Origin: Candidatus Anoxychlamydiales bacterium
GTDB lineage: Bacteria; Chlamydiota; Chlamydiia; Chlamydiales; SM23-39
Direction of reading: 5' to 3'
Assembly (NCBI GenBank): GCA_011064875.1
Contig: JAAKFV010000002.1
Coordinates: 1 to 51,749 of the forward strand
DNA: 51,749 nt
Position numbers and translations under genes: made by a program. This document shows positions 48,875-51,749 of the stretch, piece after piece. The number at the start of each line of letters is the position of its first letter. Position 1 is the stretch's first letter. The notes beneath the pieces are model-generated. The model was not told the origin of the DNA and did not search any database. It saw only the letters and a list, made by a program, of their open reading frames with translations.

Positions 48875-48990
48875 AAGCTACTAGCAACCTACTTTTGCTT
48901 TCTCTTGTGCGCATTAACATTGGCAATGAAAGGCTTAACATTCCACTTTGAAATGGTATCGGGAGAGACCATATCTCTTAGGAAGAAACA
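48875..48990 (-). pseudogene. Decayed 5S rRNA gene copy (pseudogene 1)
   Basis: By hand alignment, about 60 of the first 79 positions match the genuine 5S at 51671-51749. The shared flank aaaaaataagct is included. The conserved cttctgagttcg segment is disrupted (cattccactttg). The 5' boundary is approximate. Confidence 0.65.
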
Positions 48991-49197
48991 AAAGAAGCAG
49001 AATCCAGTATTAAAAAAGAAAAGATAAAAAAAATTATCACAAATGTAAATGACTACTTTAGAAGAATGATAATTTATAGTATCTATAACTTGATTTAATA
49101 AAATTCGATATAAAATATTTTAAATTTTTTTAATCTTCAATTTAAATCAATTTTCCTGATAGTATCTTTTGAATTCAATAAAATCAGGAGAAATTCT

Positions 49198-50313
49198 ATG
49201 ACTACCTCTCTTACAAAGATCTCTACTTCAAGTAAAATTATAAACATTGTCACTTGGCCAATTCAGAAAAAAGGAAATCTTTTTCGCACGTCTATTCCTA
49301 TAATTACTATTGTAGCATCTAAAATGCTTGCAAATACTTCCCATTTACATTCTTTATTAATAGCAGGCGTAATAATTTGGGCAAGCACAGAATTTATCTT
49401 TCATCGAATAAGCAAATCAAAGAAAATAGATTCTGCTGATGATATGGATTCTCAATTAGAGGAATTCGATAAAACTAGAGATAAAGAAAAACATCCAACT
49501 TCAAGCAGCCCAGTATCTGAAGATTTGTCTGGAAGCAAATTAACAGCGAAAATAGATTCTGCTGATGATATGGATTCTCAATTAGAGGAATCTGAAGATT
49601 TGTCTGGAAGCAAATTAACAGCACCTGAAGTTGAATTAATAAAAGGGATTTTAAATGATCCAAATTGGAAAACAAAAATAGATACGAAGCTGCAAGATTG
49701 TTTTTCAAAACTTCATATTGAAGAAAAAGATATTAGACAAATTTGGGGAGAATTTCCAACTGATTTAAAAAAACGATTAAATGGGCTATCTCAAAAAATA
49801 GATATAAAATATCAAAAGTTTTTTTTATCTACTGAAATATTAACAGATTATGCAAGTGTAATTATAAAAACTATATCAAGTTCAGCCTTTAGCAACTCTA
49901 GAGATAAAAGAACTACAAATAAAATATTCAAAGCCTTTCAGACTTTTAACATTCCAACGGATATTATTGAGATAGCATGGAGCTCATATTCAAAAGACAA
50001 AAACATAAATCCTCGTCTGCTAAAGTTATTTAAAAAGGTTTCTAAAGAAGATCGAGAGTATTTTAAATCTCCTGGAATGTTTAGTGCTTTAGATACTGCT
50101 GCTTTTTTAAGAAAGGCCCTAGCAAATCCAAAATATTGGCAAGATAAAATTGATCCTAATGATCTTGAACAAATCACTCAGGCTTTTCAAAAATTTCATT
50201 TAGATTATTATGATTTTAAAAAAGCTTGGATTACAGAAAAAGGAAAAGAAACTCTCGCTACAATGTTAGATGAAACCCTTCAGTCTCGATACATAGAATG
50301 TTTTACAGAATAA
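49198..50313 (+). CDS. Hypothetical Inc-like protein, paralog 2, with internal repeats
   Basis: 371 aa. The N-terminus is paralogous to the 48167 gene (WPIQKKGNLFRTSIPIITIVASKM...LLIAGVIIWASTEFIF). It has an in-frame duplication (KIDSADDMDSQLEE / SEDLSGSKLTA) and three copies of an F-x-K/T-F/L-H/N-I/L...W module. Confidence 0.6.
   Translation: MTTSLTKISTSSKIINIVTWPIQKKGNLFRTSIPIITIVASKMLANTSHLHSLLIAGVIIWASTEFIFHRISKSKKIDSADDMDSQLEEFDKTRDKEKHPTSSSPVSEDLSGSKLTAKIDSADDMDSQLEESEDLSGSKLTAPEVELIKGILNDPNWKTKIDTKLQDCFSKLHIEEKDIRQIWGEFPTDLKKRLNGLSQKIDIKYQKFFLSTEILTDYASVIIKTISSSAFSNSRDKRTTNKIFKAFQTFNIPTDIIEIAWSSYSKDKNINPRLLKLFKKVSKEDREYFKSPGMFSALDTAAFLRKALANPKYWQDKIDPNDLEQITQAFQKFHLDYYDFKKAWITEKGKETLATMLDETLQSRYIECFTE
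49423..49622 (+). repeat. In-frame tandem duplication inside the 49198 gene
   Basis: A 43-nt block at 49423-49465 is identical to 49549-49591. A 32-nt block at 49516-49547 is identical to 49591-49622. The second unit lacks 51 nt (17 codons) present in the first. Confidence 0.9.
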
Positions 50314-50360
50314 ATAGCATATCTTTTTAGATTTACTGCTAATAAAATGTATAAATGACA

Positions 50361-50388
50361 AAGCCCCGATATTTTCGGGGCTTTTTTG
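50361..50388. terminator. GC-rich hairpin terminator, copy of the rRNA-operon terminator
   Basis: aagccccga-tattt-tcggggctt followed by ttttt. It lies 48 nt after the stop of the 49198 gene. It is nearly the same stem as the hairpin at 51605-51624. Confidence 0.7.
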
Positions 50389-50416
50389 TATCTTAATAAT
50401 TATATATGAAAAAAAT

Positions 50417-50440
50417 AAGCTAGCAGAGCACCCTATTTTT
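50417..50440 (-). pseudogene. Short stub of the 5S rRNA 3' end (pseudogene 2)
   Basis: aagctagcagagcaccctattttt compared with the genuine aagctggcagcgacctactcttgc. It is preceded by the same taattatata...aaaaaaataagct flank. It ends where the F-box gene stop codon (50442) begins. Confidence 0.45.
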
Positions 50441-50441
50441 A

Positions 50442-50828
50442 TTAAATTTTCTTAAAAGGAAATTTTGATGGATCCTCTAATCCAAAAGGATTACGTGGAT
50501 CTTGTGAACCTCTAGTAAGATATGAAACAAAATAGTTTCCTGGAACTCTCACTTGCATAGGATTTACTGAAGATTCCATTAATAATCTCGCTAAATTCCC
50601 AACCGGAATGTTTCTTCCTACATAATCAGTAACCAATCCTTTAAAACGCACACAAACCTCTCCAAAATTTACAAGACTTTGTGTTATATGCTTCTCATAG
50701 GGTAAAAAAATAATGATTTTTAAAAGTATCTCATCTGAAAGTGCATATAAATCTGAATTTTTTCTATTTTCATCATCTAATATTGGATCTATTGCTCTTG
50801 TTACTGTAAAGCTTATCCTTGCTGCCAT
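50442..50828 (-). CDS. F-box domain protein (candidate SCF-hijacking effector)
   Basis: 128 aa. Residues about 27-68, LYALSDEILLKIIIFLPYEKHITQSLVNFGEVCVRFKGLVTD, fit the F-box consensus (LPdEillkIlsyL....l..l..Vck.w..lv.d). Confidence 0.68.
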   Translation of the reverse strand: MAARISFTVTRAIDPILDDENRKNSDLYALSDEILLKIIIFLPYEKHITQSLVNFGEVCVRFKGLVTDYVGRNIPVGNLARLLMESSVNPMQVRVPGNYFVSYLTRGSQDPRNPFGLEDPSKFPFKKI

Positions 50829-50960
50829 ATTAAAACCTCTTTTATTTTTACTAAATTAATATTTAATAGTTTTTAATTTAATAATATAATAACATCTTTG
50901 ACAATTAAAGTAAATTATCATATAAATAACTCATTATAAAAGATCTATATACAAAGAAAT

Positions 50961-51076
50961 AAGCTGACAGCAACTTATTCTTACATACTCTTGGCTCCCT
51001 TCCATTGACTAGAATAAGCTTTTTAACTTCGAAATGTATCAGGTATCCCCCTTTAAAATTCTTTTAAGTTGGCTTT
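50961..51076 (-). pseudogene. Decayed 5S rRNA gene copy (pseudogene 3)
   Basis: The first 33 nt differ from the genuine copy at 5 positions, all G-to-A or C-to-T. It then decays further, with a 6-nt deletion in the ctgagt segment. The tcaggt block is retained. Length is about 116 nt. Confidence 0.6.
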
Positions 51077-51258
51077 TTAACATAAGTCTCATACTATCAA
51101 ACATTTAGCGTTATTCATCCTACTAACACTCTAATCAACAACCACTTATGTTTTCTTATTTTTAGTTGACTTTATTAATTAAATATTATAATATTACTAT
51201 TGTTTTATTGAATATAAAACATAATAATTTAATATTAAAAAATAATAAGGAGAAAAAA

Positions 51259-51450
51259 ATGAAAGTAGCATTAAAAGTATTGAATAGATTTAAAGGTTAT
51301 GGAGTTATTGATGGAAATAACCAAAATAAAGGTTCAACAAATACCTTACGTAAACTAACTTTACTTGCTCGTAAATTTAAATTTACTGGTGAAATGGCTC
51401 CCTTACTTCCTAAAGGAAAAAAAATCACTAAATATAATGAATCTCTGTAA
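51259..51450 (+). CDS. Hypothetical small basic protein
   Basis: 63 aa from the ATG at 51259, with AAGGAG 8 nt upstream. The track ORF starts at 51166 (TTG). No motif recognised. Confidence 0.4.
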   Translation: MKVALKVLNRFKGYGVIDGNNQNKGSTNTLRKLTLLARKFKFTGEMAPLLPKGKKITKYNESL

Positions 51451-51597
51451 AATCTTAAAAAGAAAATATTAGATATCTTTGTCTAGAGGTATCTATATAA
51501 TATTCAAGATTTCATTAGTTTATTTAAAAAACAGAAAAAAAAGAATCTTAAAATTATATAATTTTTTAAAAGTTTTTAAAATTTTATATCCTTAAAT

Positions 51598-51630
51598 AAA
51601 AAAAAGCCCCGAAATATCGGGGCTTTTTTA
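51598..51630. terminator. Hairpin terminator downstream of the 5S rRNA gene (bidirectional form)
   Basis: agccccga-aata-tcggggct flanked by an A-run and a T-run. It lies about 45 nt downstream of the 5S 3' end on the minus strand. Confidence 0.75.
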
Positions 51631-51670
51631 TATAACTTAAAGTCTTTTAGTAATTATATAGAAAAAAAAT

Positions 51671-51749
51671 AAGCTGGCAGCGACCTACTCTTGCATACTC
51701 TTGTGCATACTACCATCGGCGATGAAAGGCTTAACTTCTGAGTTCGAAA
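51671..51749 (-). rRNA. rrf: 5S ribosomal RNA, 3' portion (continues beyond the window end)
   Basis: The reverse complement aligns with the bacterial 5S consensus. Compare aagctggcagcgacctactcttgcatac...ctaccatcggcgatgaaaggcttaacttctgagttcgaaa here with E. coli GCCTGGCAGTTCCCTACTCTCGCATGG...CTACCATCGGCGCTACGGCGTTTCACTTCTGAGTTCGGCA. Confidence 0.9.

What the first reader, a model, noticed from the sequence alone, without database searches (positions are those of the whole stretch)
48875..51749. Three decayed 5S rRNA gene copies interleaved with effector-like genes next to the genuine 5S gene
The window ends in a genuine 5S rRNA gene (minus strand, 51671 onward). Three further minus-strand copies of its sequence occur at 48875-~48990, 50417-50440 (a 24-nt stub) and 50961-~51076. 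Each is preceded on the plus strand by the same flank, aaaaa(a)ataagct. By hand alignment, copy 1 matches about 60 of 79 positions, and the universally conserved cttctgagttcg segment is destroyed. In copy 3 the first 33 nt differ at 5 positions, all G-to-A or C-to-T, which fits AT-biased decay. Between the copies sit the two Inc-like paralogs, the F-box gene and a small basic ORF. This looks like repeated segmental duplication of the rRNA-operon 3' end, with novel genes arising or being captured in the spacers. That would make it an effector nursery anchored on 5S pseudogenes.
Basis: seen in the sequence. Interest (0 to 1): 0.72.

Follow-up and report, generated by a model that had tools for sequence, protein, structure and literature searches.

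The report
Fossil 5S rRNA genes beside effector-like genes
Next to the working 5S rRNA gene of an uncultured marine-sediment chlamydia (Anoxychlamydiales) lie two dead full-length 5S copies and one 24-base stub, left behind as the end of the ribosomal RNA operon was repeatedly duplicated and rebuilt around fast-evolving, host-interaction-like genes.

Summary
Besides the genuine 5S gene (minus strand, 51672 onward, joined to 23S in a sister contig), there are three 5S-derived pieces. Copy 1 is a full-length pseudogene at 48876-48989 (nhmmer E 2e-15). Copy 3 is a full-length pseudogene at 50962-~51076 (E 1e-8). Copy 2 is a 24-nt 3' stub at 50418-50440 that still carries the 5S downstream spacer and terminator hairpin (blastn E 7e-7). 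None fits the 5S structure.

Related metagenome contigs show how they arose.
- Copy 1 abuts a relic of the 3' end of the gene upstream of Inc1. So [relic-Inc2-5S] is a tandem duplicate of [gene A 3' end-Inc1-5S].
- Stubs 1 and 2 and the F-box gene are shared with MAG K940_chlam_5. Stub 2 and the F-box gene also occur in a more distant relative, X.
- Copy 3 sits exactly where X has its working 5S, so it is a displaced former operon-terminal 5S.

The gene next to the 5S terminator differs in every relative, and the array genes have dN/dS of 0.6-0.9. This is a ribosomal-operon-flank plasticity zone, comparable to the Chlamydiaceae rrn-nqrF zone, with 5S fossils recording its growth. De novo gene birth and any role for the pseudogenes remain unshown.

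The parts
46497..48056 (+). Gene A: a 519-aa membrane protein with UIM-like motifs. It is the left neighbour of the array, and its ortholog in K940_chlam_5 is 655 aa.
   Evidence: BLASTP gives 46% identity over residues 1-517 against 1-527 of the 655-aa ortholog. The window copy lacks the last ~128 aa. No Pfam hit. dN/dS is 0.58.
48167..48832 (+). Inc1: a 221-aa Inc-like protein with a hydrophobic ~40-aa segment at aa 33-68. It converges on pseudo-5S copy 1.
   Evidence: The ortholog in K940 (L023 9104-9763) is 51% identical, with dN/dS 0.93. It is a full-length paralog of K940 Inc2o, at 35% identity.
48876..48989 (-). Pseudo-5S copy 1. It is full length and decayed. The T-run and about 35 nt of homologous 3' flank extend to ~48835.
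   Evidence: blastn E 3e-20, nhmmer E 1.9e-15. Rfam gives 17 bits against a 38-bit cut-off, with many non-pairs. Fold z-score is +0.50. It is 75% identical to the genuine 5S. In K940 only a ~30-nt stub remains.
49009..49098 (+). Relic A': the last ~30 codons and stop of the long form of gene A. It lies within 20 nt of the 5' end of copy 1.
   Evidence: Alignment A2. tblastx 49009-49089 against the L005 655-aa gene end, E 4.8e-6. blastn 49043-49200 against L005 15465-15634, 73.7%, E 3e-25. A shorter relic sits at the same place in K940.
49198..50313 (+). Inc2: a 371-aa chimeric Inc-like protein with fresh internal repeats.
   Evidence: aa 1-78 are 67% identical to K940 Inc2o (P0003). aa 132-371 are 54% identical to P0002 of L025. 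The N-terminal 70 aa are 54% identical to Inc1. Repeats 49422-49465/49548-49591 and 49515-49547/49590-49622 are 100% identical.
50360..50391 (.). Terminator hairpin T (AAAGCCCCGATATTTTCGGGGCTTT), part of the 5S 3'-flank module of stub 2.
   Evidence: Terminator scan. The motif occurs only twice in the 51.7-kb window, both times next to 5S-derived sequence, and only next to 5S 3' ends in relatives.
50392..50440 (-). Copy 2: spacer, T-run (50410-50416) and a 24-nt stub of the 5S 3' end (50418-50440). It abuts the F-box stop codon.
   Evidence: 85% identity over 39 nt to the genuine flank plus 5S end (D4). blastn E 7e-7 including the hairpin. Orthologous stubs exist in K940 (L023 ~10775-10800) and X (L031 ~5556-5585), sharing a derived G>A.
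50442..50828 (-). A 128-aa gene with an F-box-like motif at aa 30-68.
   Evidence: All three orthologs (window, K940, X) hit Pfam F-box and F-box-like. The best E is 1.3e-4, and the window copy (E 0.07) is below the curated cut-off. Identity is 67% to K940 and 46% to X. dN/dS is 0.80.
50829..50961 (-). F-box upstream region, followed by the residual 3' flank and T-run of copy 3. Relative to X, a 58-nt stretch holding the degenerate hairpin T' is missing.
   Evidence: Alignment A5. Homology to K940 runs to window 50931, where an IS-like repeat begins in K940.
50962..51076 (-). Pseudo-5S copy 3. It is full length and more decayed, and is the positional ortholog of the working 5S of relative X.
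   Evidence: blastn E 7e-16, nhmmer E 9.8e-9. No Rfam hit. Fold z-score +0.84. 76.5% identical to the genuine 5S. Colinear with L031.
51259..51450 (+). Orphan 63-aa basic ORF (14 K/R, 3 D/E). It has an AAGGAG Shine-Dalgarno sequence and a promoter-like site at 51166-51194, and sits inside a 525-nt segment (51077-51601) of unknown origin.
   Evidence: No homolog among 5.8 billion proteins other than itself. No paralogy to any other part of the window or relatives. Promoter scan.
51600..51671 (-). Terminator hairpin (51600-51633), spacer and T-run downstream of the genuine 5S.
   Evidence: (D8, I21).
51672..51749 (-). Genuine 5S rRNA gene, 3' 78 nt. The remainder, the spacer and the 23S lie beyond the window end.
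   Evidence: Rfam 40.5 bits. L003 supplies the full 115 nt and the 23S 3' end. The fold is a canonical three-helix junction with z-score -1.65.

Best explanation
The three extra 5S segments are dead relics ('fossils') of former 5S genes. They were left by several rounds of duplication and recombination at the 3' boundary of an rRNA operon in an Anoxychlamydiales bacterium.

Inferred starting module, seen intact in relatives: an Inc-like gene, then terminator hairpin T, converging on 5S, which is joined to 23S.

Step 1 (shown by paralogy). A tandem duplication of [3' end of gene A - Inc gene - flank - 5S] produced A-Inc1-5S(copy 1) | A' relic-Inc2-5S. The outer 5S lost its link to the operon promoter and decayed.

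Step 2 (shown to be old; mechanism inferred). The F-box cassette came to lie between a 24-nt 5S 3' stub (copy 2) and a complete terminal 5S.

Step 3 (shown by positional orthology). In the window lineage, a further unit of [525-nt orphan segment with a small ORF + T + 5S] was added between that terminal 5S and the 23S. This turned the old terminal 5S into pseudogene copy 3.

Step 4 (shown as a mosaic; mechanism inferred). The C-terminal part of Inc2 and its flank were replaced by a P0002-type C-terminus plus T plus spacer. The right-hand breakpoint falls exactly at the T-run of stub 2. This suggests that homology in the 5S end/terminator module served as one recombination arm.

The pseudogenes themselves most likely do nothing. 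They mark the successive edges of a hypervariable zone in which fast-evolving, host-interaction-like genes (Inc-like, F-box-like, LRR in relatives) are duplicated, shuffled and replaced.
For: Homology and decay:
- Similarity is significant for all three copies.
- The 5S structure is lost.
- Substitutions are AT-biased and GC content is intermediate.

Flanks were co-duplicated:
- The T-run plus 35-55 nt of 3' flank is shared by all copies.
- The T hairpin is found only beside 5S modules.

Step 1:
- The A' relic lies within 20 nt of the 5' end of copy 1.
- Inc1 and Inc2 share the upstream region and N-terminus.
- In K940 the two Inc genes are full-length paralogs with similar 3' flanks, each followed by a 5S stub.

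Age:
- Stub 1, the relic, stub 2 and the F-box gene are present in K940_chlam_5 (L023 is 100% identical to L005).
- Stub 2 and the F-box gene are present in X.
- Copy 1 in the window and in K940 share three derived changes (read).

Step 3: the window region from F-box to copy 3 is colinear with the X region from F-box to genuine 5S-ITS-23S.

Step 4.

Hot spot:
- The gene adjacent to the 5S terminator differs in W, K940, K1060, X, Y, Z and L025, although the five whose 5S was compared with the window's differ from it by 2-4% or less.
- dN/dS is 0.58-0.93 for array genes against 0.11-0.22 for neighbouring housekeeping genes.

Precedent: the rrn-nqrF plasticity zone directly downstream of the 5S in Chlamydiaceae (PMC10715202, PMC3932018).
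Against: - The molecular mechanism of each step is not resolved. Candidates are unequal crossing-over, homology-facilitated illegitimate recombination, and Campbell-type insertion.
- The 525-nt segment and the F-box cassette have no detectable source sequence.
- Both full-length copies end within about 10-20 nt of the 5S 5' end, with no ITS or 23S homology. For random duplication breakpoints this is a coincidence that remains unexplained.
- The [stub 2 - F-box] module sits in different left-hand contexts in X and in W/K940. That requires at least one extra transfer or rearrangement between rrn-end loci.
- K940's state to the right of the F-box gene is hidden by an IS-like repeat, so the timing of step 3 is uncertain.
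- All comparison sequences are metagenome contigs that break at rRNA genes.
Confidence: 0.75

Rival explanations
1. The 5S-derived repeats are attachment-site duplications. Small mobile cassettes (F-box, small ORF) integrated site-specifically into the 3' end of the 5S gene, as genomic islands do at tRNA genes. Each brought a replacement 5S end and left the old end as a stub.
For: - In X the F-box cassette (~0.5 kb) is flanked by direct repeats of [T hairpin - spacer - 5S 3' end].
- The [stub 2 - F-box] module occurs in two different genomic contexts (X versus W/K940).
- Stub 2 is exactly a 3'-terminal fragment.
Against: - There is no integrase or transposase ORF in 46-51.7 kb. All ORFs there are accounted for.
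- The repeats include 35-55 nt of flank outside the gene on both sides.
- Copies 1 and 3 are full length, which att duplications do not explain.
- Copy 1 abuts a relic of gene A and is followed by a paralogous Inc gene. That is the signature of a segmental DNA duplication.
Confidence: 0.1
2. The ancestor had an rRNA operon with several tandem functional 5S genes (16S-23S-5S-5S-5S). The extra genes became redundant and decayed in place, and protein genes were inserted between them later.
For: - Multi-5S operons exist in other bacteria (own knowledge, for example E. coli rrnD).
- Copies 1 and 3 are both about 24-25% diverged from the genuine gene, and their relationship to each other is star-like.
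Against: - The A' relic and the paralogous Inc gene lie directly at the 5' edge of copy 1.
- X, K940 (L002), K1060, Y, Z and L025 each show a single 5S directly beside a protein gene or terminator, with no further 5S within up to 8-14 kb.
- Copy 3 corresponds to the single working 5S of X.
Confidence: 0.07
3. The 5S-derived pieces have been exapted. They would act as 3' terminators, processing sites or small RNAs for the convergent effector genes, or as decoys for 5S-binding proteins, and would be retained by selection.
For: - Stub 2, with its T-run and hairpin, lies immediately after the F-box stop codon and after Inc2. It could terminate both.
- Stub 2 has been retained in three lineages.
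Against: - Copy 1 is reduced to ~30 nt in K940 and replaced by an unrelated hairpin.
- The T hairpin is missing beside stub 2 in K940 and beside copy 3 in the window.
- The copies show no structural stability (z-scores +0.5 and +0.84).
- Divergence of the stubs is no lower than that of flanking DNA (about 83% identity).
Confidence: 0.07
4. The structure is an assembly or binning artefact that joins rRNA-flank fragments from different genomes.
For: All sequences are metagenome-derived, and contigs break at rRNA genes.
Against: - The whole 8-kb structure is reproduced at 99.5% identity in independent assemblies (L003 from ENA, L004 from NCBI).
- Its parts are reproduced in diverged relatives.
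- The copies are diverged, not identical, so they would not mislead an assembler.
Confidence: 0.01

Closest known systems
rrn-nqrF plasticity zone of Chlamydiaceae (Liu et al. 2007, J Bacteriol 189:2128, as cited in PMC10715202 and PMC3932018)
   Same: - It is the region immediately downstream of the 5S gene of the rRNA operon.
- Its length and gene content vary strongly between close relatives, from 261 bp to 4.5 kb.
- It holds non-essential, putative host-interaction genes (invasin-like, membrane proteins) and accepts foreign DNA, such as the C. suis Tet-island and experimental vector integration.
   Different: - This locus is in a different order (Anoxychlamydiales).
- The left neighbours found here are gene A, an 86-aa ORF and EamA. 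nqrF was not looked for.
- The cargo is different: Inc-like, F-box-like, LRR and orphan genes.
- Decayed 5S gene copies and stubs are present at the unit boundaries. The papers I could read do not mention this for Chlamydiaceae. The primary paper was not available to me.
Tandem duplication of the 23S-5S genes in Borrelia burgdorferi sensu lato, and the double 5S gene of E. coli rrnD (own knowledge, not checked here)
   Same: Duplication of the 3' part of an rRNA operon yields extra 5S genes in direct orientation.
   Different: Those duplicates remain functional and nearly identical. Here the outer copies are cut off from the operon, are 24-25% diverged, are structurally destroyed and are interleaved with protein genes.
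tRNA/tmRNA gene 3'-fragment repeats flanking integrated genomic islands (see PMC9897764 on tRNA gene fragments)
   Same: A 3'-terminal stub of a stable-RNA gene lies at the far side of an inserted gene, and the intact gene is regenerated on the other side. This is the stub 2 / F-box / 5S arrangement in X.
   Different: - There is no integrase.
- The repeats include extragenic flank and a terminator.
- Two copies are full-length genes.
- One copy is joined to a relic of a protein gene.
Expansion of Inc and ubiquitination-related (F-box, BTB, LRR) effector families by tandem duplication in Chlamydiae (own knowledge, for example Domman et al. 2014; not checked here)
   Same: Lineage-specific, rapidly diverging paralog arrays of membrane-anchored and eukaryote-like proteins, generated by local duplication.
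   Different: - The families here have no database relatives beyond two or three metagenome proteins.
- The array is tied to the rRNA operon end.
- The duplication units carry an rRNA gene as a passenger.

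Membership tests
Functional 5S rRNA gene (Rfam RF00001) | Covariance-model score at or above the gathering score of 38 bits | tested here: not met
   Copy 1 scores 17 bits. Copy 3 has no hit at E<=10. The stub is only 24 nt. 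The genuine gene scores 40.5 bits even though truncated.
Functional 5S rRNA gene (Rfam RF00001) | Helix I-V base pairing and a three-way junction fold | tested here: not met
   About 20 non-canonical pairs are flagged in the copy 1 alignment. The MFE folds lack helix I, with z-scores of +0.50 and +0.84 against -1.65 for the genuine gene.
Functional 5S rRNA gene (Rfam RF00001) | Co-transcription with 23S in the rRNA operon | tested here: not met
   No ITS or 23S homology lies upstream of copy 1 or copy 3. Only the genuine gene is joined to the ITS and 23S.
Pseudogene created by segmental (DNA-level) duplication | Significant homology to a parent gene, extending into non-genic flank | tested here: met
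   E values range from 3e-20 to 7e-7. The T-run plus 35-55 nt of flank, and in one case the terminator, is shared.
Pseudogene created by segmental (DNA-level) duplication | Neighbouring genes co-duplicated in the same order | tested here: met
   This holds for copy 1 and copy 2: A 3' end-Inc1-5S and A' relic-Inc2-5S stub. It is not demonstrable for the unit containing the small ORF.
Pseudogene created by segmental (DNA-level) duplication | Independent decay or loss of orthologous copies in related lineages | tested here: met
   Copy 1 is full length in the window but a ~30-nt stub in K940. The T hairpin is present or absent in different lineages.
Integrative-element attachment-site repeat | Tyrosine or serine recombinase gene within or next to the inserted segment | tested here: not met
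   The ORFs of 46-51.7 kb are listed and searched in Pfam. None is a recombinase. The rest of the window was not searched protein by protein.
Integrative-element attachment-site repeat | Direct repeats limited to the 3' part of the target gene, bracketing the insert | tested here: inconclusive
   This holds for stub 2 / F-box / 5S in X, although the repeat also includes spacer and terminator. It does not hold for full-length copies 1 and 3.
rRNA-operon-flank plasticity zone (as rrn-nqrF in Chlamydiaceae) | Lies directly downstream of the operon's 5S gene | tested here: met
rRNA-operon-flank plasticity zone (as rrn-nqrF in Chlamydiaceae) | Gene content differs among close relatives while the flanks are conserved | tested here: met
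   Seven relatives have seven different 5S-adjacent genes. EamA and the peptidase to the left are 89-93% identical at the protein level to K940.
rRNA-operon-flank plasticity zone (as rrn-nqrF in Chlamydiaceae) | Bounded on the other side by nqrF | not tested
   The left neighbours identified are gene A, an 86-aa ORF and EamA. nqrF was not looked for in the window.
Chlamydial Inc (inclusion membrane) proteins | Bilobed hydrophobic domain of about 40-60 aa | tested here: inconclusive
   One moderately hydrophobic stretch of about 40 aa (aa 33-72) is present in Inc1 and Inc2. No Pfam family matches.
Chlamydial Inc (inclusion membrane) proteins | Type III secretion and localisation to the inclusion membrane | not testable with these tools
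   The organism is uncultured.
F-box proteins (Pfam PF00646 / PF12937) | Match to the F-box profile above the curated cut-off | tested here: inconclusive
   All three orthologs match at aa ~30-68. The best E is 1.3e-4. The window protein scores 13.3 and 12.8 bits against cut-offs of 24.3 and 20.5. The structure prediction was unusable, with pLDDT 34.5.

The most novel reading that the evidence does not exclude
The [terminator hairpin - spacer - 5S 3' end] module, together with the long identical 5S/23S sequence, works as a recombinase-independent landing pad. Cassettes encoding host-interaction proteins would be added, swapped between rRNA operon ends (or between strains) and pushed outward, each time with a fresh 5S. 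The order of 5S fossils would then record the history of effector acquisition, like growth rings. This would be a general mode of effector-repertoire evolution in Anoxychlamydiales.
Probability: 0.15. Interest if true: 0.7.

Novelty: new variant of a known kind. Interest (0 to 1): 0.45.

Why it matters
rRNA pseudogenes are rarely described in bacteria. Here they act as dated markers that let the history of a hypervariable locus be read step by step: tandem duplication, displacement of the terminal 5S, and chimera formation.

The finding suggests that the 'plasticity zone downstream of the rRNA operon' known from pathogenic Chlamydia also exists in a deep-branching, anaerobic, marine-sediment chlamydial order. 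It also points to a concrete mechanism, duplication and recombination anchored in the 5S/terminator module, by which obligate intracellular bacteria with little gene flow could diversify host-interaction proteins.

On a practical level, it flags pseudo-5S hits and contig breaks at this locus as biology and not noise when MAGs are annotated.

Tried and rejected
1. I looked for ITS or 23S homology upstream of copies 1 and 3. None was found: local alignment scores were within the shuffle range.
2. I looked for a source of the 525-nt segment (51077-51601) and of the F-box cassette, using blastn, tblastx and blastx against the window and all fetched loci. Only AT-rich noise came back.
3. A global alignment of the two segments gave a weak excess in the reverse-complement orientation (z about 3). 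I attribute this to similar AT-rich promoter/RBS stretches and did not interpret it.
4. I tested whether copies 1 and 3 share a pseudogene ancestor. Only 5 shared derived states were found among 10 co-variable sites, so the relationship is star-like and not informative.
5. I tried to see K940's state to the right of the F-box gene. It is blocked by an IS-like repeat at the contig end.
6. AlphaFold2 on the F-box-like protein without an alignment gave pLDDT 34.5, which is unusable.
7. A profile search of the F-box orthologs against PDB sequences found nothing meaningful.
8. Strain comparison (window versus L003/L004) yielded only one SNP in the copies, so it carries no information on constraint.
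9. A literature search for bacterial 5S pseudogenes was swamped by human RNA5SP141 papers. The primary rrn-nqrF paper (PMC1855709) was not held.

Full report
**Source and setting.** The window is AT-rich, about 29% GC. Its 5S gene and flank match metagenome-assembled genomes labelled Candidatus Anoxychlamydiales: 98% to K940_chlam_5, and 84% including flank to K1060_chlam_1. The same locus occurs at 99.5% identity in two independent marine-sediment assemblies, L003 and L004. L003 runs 134 nt past the window end. It shows that the terminal 5S is a complete 115-nt gene, preceded by about 60 nt of spacer and the 3' end of 23S. It is therefore the operon's genuine 5S. Rfam scores the truncated part at 40.5 bits, and the full sequence folds into the canonical three-helix junction.

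**Check of the observation.** All three extra copies are real.

| Segment | Coordinates | blastn | nhmmer | Rfam |
|---|---|---|---|---|
| Copy 1 | 48876-48989 | 76.8% over 112 nt, E 3e-20 | E 1.9e-15 | 17 bits over model positions 1-120 |
| Copy 3 | 50962-~51076 | 70.9% over 148 nt including flank, E 7e-16 | E 9.8e-9 | no hit at E<=10 |
| Copy 2 | 50418-50440 | 74% over 73 nt including flank and hairpin, E 7e-7 | too short | too short |

- Copy 2 is a 24-nt 3' stub that keeps the T-run, an 85%-identical spacer and the same hairpin terminator as the genuine gene.
- That hairpin motif occurs only twice in the 51.7 kb, and in relatives only beside 5S 3' ends.
- Copy 1 has about 20 non-canonical pairs in the Rfam alignment.
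- Neither full-length copy folds better than shuffled sequence, with z-scores of +0.50 and +0.84.
- Copies 1 and 3 are 75% and 76.5% identical to the genuine gene and 65% identical to each other. GC>AT changes dominate, and GC content is intermediate at 40% and 36%, between 50% (gene) and 18% (intergenic).

Two corrections apply. 'agct' in the shared flank is the end of the 5S itself. Inc1 lies to the left of copy 1, not between copies.

**How copy 1 arose.**
- In K940_chlam_5 (contigs L005 and L023, 100% identical in their overlap), the order is EamA, two extra genes, a 655-aa gene A, then an Inc1 ortholog.
- The window's 519-aa gene A matches residues 1-527 of that protein and lacks the last ~128 aa.
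- The last ~30 codons and stop of the long form survive as a relic at 49009-49098. This lies within 20 nt of the 5' end of copy 1 and directly upstream of Inc2 (alignment A2; tblastx E 4.8e-6 and blastn 73.7%, E 3e-25).
- Inc1 and Inc2 share their upstream region and the first 70 aa at 54% identity.
- In K940 the two Inc genes are full-length paralogs (33% identity, E 4e-39). They have similar 3' flanks, and each is followed by a 5S 3' stub. A shorter A' relic sits between them.

This is the signature of a tandem duplication of the unit [3' end of A - Inc - flank - 5S]. It predates the split of the window organism from K940, for which dS is 0.25-0.48. The window and K940 versions of copy 1 share three derived substitutions. 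K940 has since lost all but about 30 nt of it, replacing the rest with an unrelated hairpin. That loss argues that the copy is dispensable.

**Copy 2 and the F-box gene.**
- Stub 2 abuts the stop codon of a 128-aa gene on the minus strand.
- All three orthologs of this gene (window, K940, X) hit the Pfam F-box models at aa 30-68. The best E is 1.3e-4, and the window copy (E 0.07) is below the curated cut-off.
- The stub-F-box junction is the same in K940 and in a more distant relative X (contigs L031 and L029 from the metagenome scan). The F-box proteins are 67% (window-K940) and 46% (window-X) identical.
- The stubs share a derived G>A.
- In X the arrangement is Inc-like remnant - T hairpin - spacer - stub - F-box - upstream region - degenerate hairpin - complete 5S - ITS - 23S. 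The cassette is therefore bracketed by direct repeats of the 5S-end module.

**Copy 3.** Alignment A5 shows that the window sequence from the F-box start through its upstream region to copy 3 is colinear with X from the F-box start to X's working 5S. The only difference is a 58-nt gap that removes the hairpin. Copy 3 is therefore the former operon-terminal 5S. In the window lineage a further ~709 nt now separates it from the 23S. This comprises a 525-nt segment with an orphan 63-aa basic ORF, the T hairpin, the spacer and the present 5S. The 525 nt have no detectable relative anywhere. The ORF has a good Shine-Dalgarno sequence, a promoter-like site and the terminator. It may be a real, lineage-specific gene, but nothing tests this.

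**Inc2 is a chimera.**
- Residues 1-78 match K940's Inc2 ortholog at 67% identity.
- Residues 132-371 match P0002 of another relative (L025) at 54% identity. There the gene is followed by the T hairpin and a 5S 3' end at the contig end.
- Homology between the window and K940 resumes exactly at the T-run of stub 2, at window 50410.
- The left junction lies in a linker that contains 100%-identical 44-nt and 33-nt direct repeats.

So a P0002-type [C-terminus + T + spacer] replaced the original Inc2 3' part, with one breakpoint at the 5S-end module. I infer, but cannot show, that this module supplied the homology for recombination.

**The locus as a hot spot.** The gene next to the 5S terminator is different in every relative seen:

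| Genome | Gene next to the 5S terminator |
|---|---|
| Window | orphan 63-aa ORF |
| K940 (L002) | IncA, then IncB |
| K1060 (L001) | Inc-like gene |
| Y (L032) | Inc-like gene |
| X (L031) | F-box gene |
| Z (L033) | LRR protein |
| L025 | P0002 Inc-like gene |

Where I compared them (five of the six relatives; L025 keeps only the last few bases), their 5S genes plus immediate flank match the window's at 96-98%, or 90% where more flank is aligned. K940, K1060 and X share a conserved gene set (271 aa, 480 aa, 120 aa and others) behind their 5S that is absent from the window. Either there are two operon contexts, or there has been a rearrangement with a breakpoint at the 5S.

The array genes evolve fast. 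dN/dS is 0.93 for Inc1, 0.80 for F-box, 0.63 for the Inc2 N-terminus and 0.58 for gene A. For EamA, the S9 peptidase and DUF6622 it is 0.11-0.22. Yet the array genes keep long open frames in a 29% GC genome. This fits relaxed or diversifying selection on real proteins.

'Inc-like' rests only on a ~40-aa hydrophobic stretch. No family in Pfam matches.

**Mechanism and rivals.** The best-supported reading is serial duplication and recombination at the operon's 3' edge, with the outer 5S copies as non-functional passengers (confidence 0.75).
- Site-specific integration explains the stub 2 / F-box / 5S repeat pattern in X. However, there is no recombinase gene, the repeats include extragenic flank, and the full-length copies and the A' relic are not explained.
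- An ancestral multi-5S operon is contradicted by the relic at copy 1, and by relatives that have a single 5S.
- Exaptation as terminators or small RNAs is weakened by lineage-specific loss of copy 1, loss of the hairpins, and the lack of structure.
- Assembly artefact is excluded by independent assemblies.

What remains unexplained:
- Both full-length fossils end within 10-20 nt of the mature 5S 5' end, with no ITS homology.
- The 525-nt and F-box segments have no known origin.
- The [stub 2 - F-box] module sits in different left-hand contexts in X and in W/K940.

[quoted passage not shown] That is the segment directly downstream of the 5S. It varies from 261 bp to about 4.5 kb, carries invasin-like and membrane-protein genes, took up the C. 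suis Tet-island and readily integrates vectors (PMC10715202; PMC3932018; both cite Liu et al. 2007, which I could not read). The present locus works like that zone in a distant chlamydial order. It adds a feature I did not find described: fossil 5S genes and stubs at the unit boundaries, which document how the zone grows. I rate it a new variant of a known kind. It is of moderate interest (0.45): informative for chlamydial genome evolution and for MAG annotation, but not a new class of system.

Noticed in passing
window 46497-48056: The 519-aa gene A product has hydrophobic segments at aa 109-131 and 189-211. By eye it also has two ubiquitin-interacting-motif-like stretches (…EQALECALRLS… and …EEALVQMALKASLQE at the C-terminus). 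There is no Pfam hit. The K940 ortholog is 655 aa, with an extra C-terminal domain that the window copy has lost.
   Followed up: partly
window 49422-49622: Inc2 contains 100%-identical direct repeats (49422-49465 = 49548-49591; 49515-49547 = 49590-49622). This is a very recent internal duplication, and it sits exactly in the linker where the chimera junction lies.
   Followed up: partly
window 45168-45641 (EamA gene): 32 of the 34-40 differences between the window and the sister-strain contigs L003/L004 cluster in 474 nt of the EamA transporter gene, causing 7 amino-acid changes. The other ~7.7 kb are almost identical. This looks like a recombination tract.
   Followed up: partly
L023 11288-11398 and L026 3940-4059 (K940_chlam_5): An IS-like repeated element, starting GTAGGAACAAAGTAGTTGTGTCCTAA… and followed by an RBS and ATG, ends two contigs. 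One copy is inserted just right of the F-box upstream region, where the window has copy 3.
   Followed up: partly
L005 11230-13137 versus window 45978-46368: K940 has two extra genes between EamA and gene A: a 282-aa membrane-like protein and a 333-aa F-box/LRR protein. The window lacks them and has only an 86-aa ORF (45911-46171, minus strand) there. This is another indel in the same neighbourhood.
   Followed up: no
L023 9870-9900 versus L023 8975-9005: In K940 the A' relic upstream of the Inc2 ortholog is 30/31 identical to the real 3' end of gene A, although the adjacent Inc N-termini are only ~73% identical. This suggests gene conversion, or that the Inc promoter lies in this stretch.
   Followed up: no
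L033 170-841; L026 2107-3861: Other eukaryote-like proteins turn up in relatives. An LRR protein sits directly beside the 5S terminator in relative Z. K940 contig 143 encodes a 584-aa protein with an N-terminal RING/zinc-finger-like Cys pattern and a C-terminal transmembrane segment.
   Followed up: no
L031 5370-5507: In relative X a 45-codon remnant of a K1060-type Inc-like gene (MFGVTRLINGFSSVFSIDNAKAILNWPINNKN…) ends just before the T hairpin of the stub. This is another truncated family member at a module boundary.
   Followed up: partly
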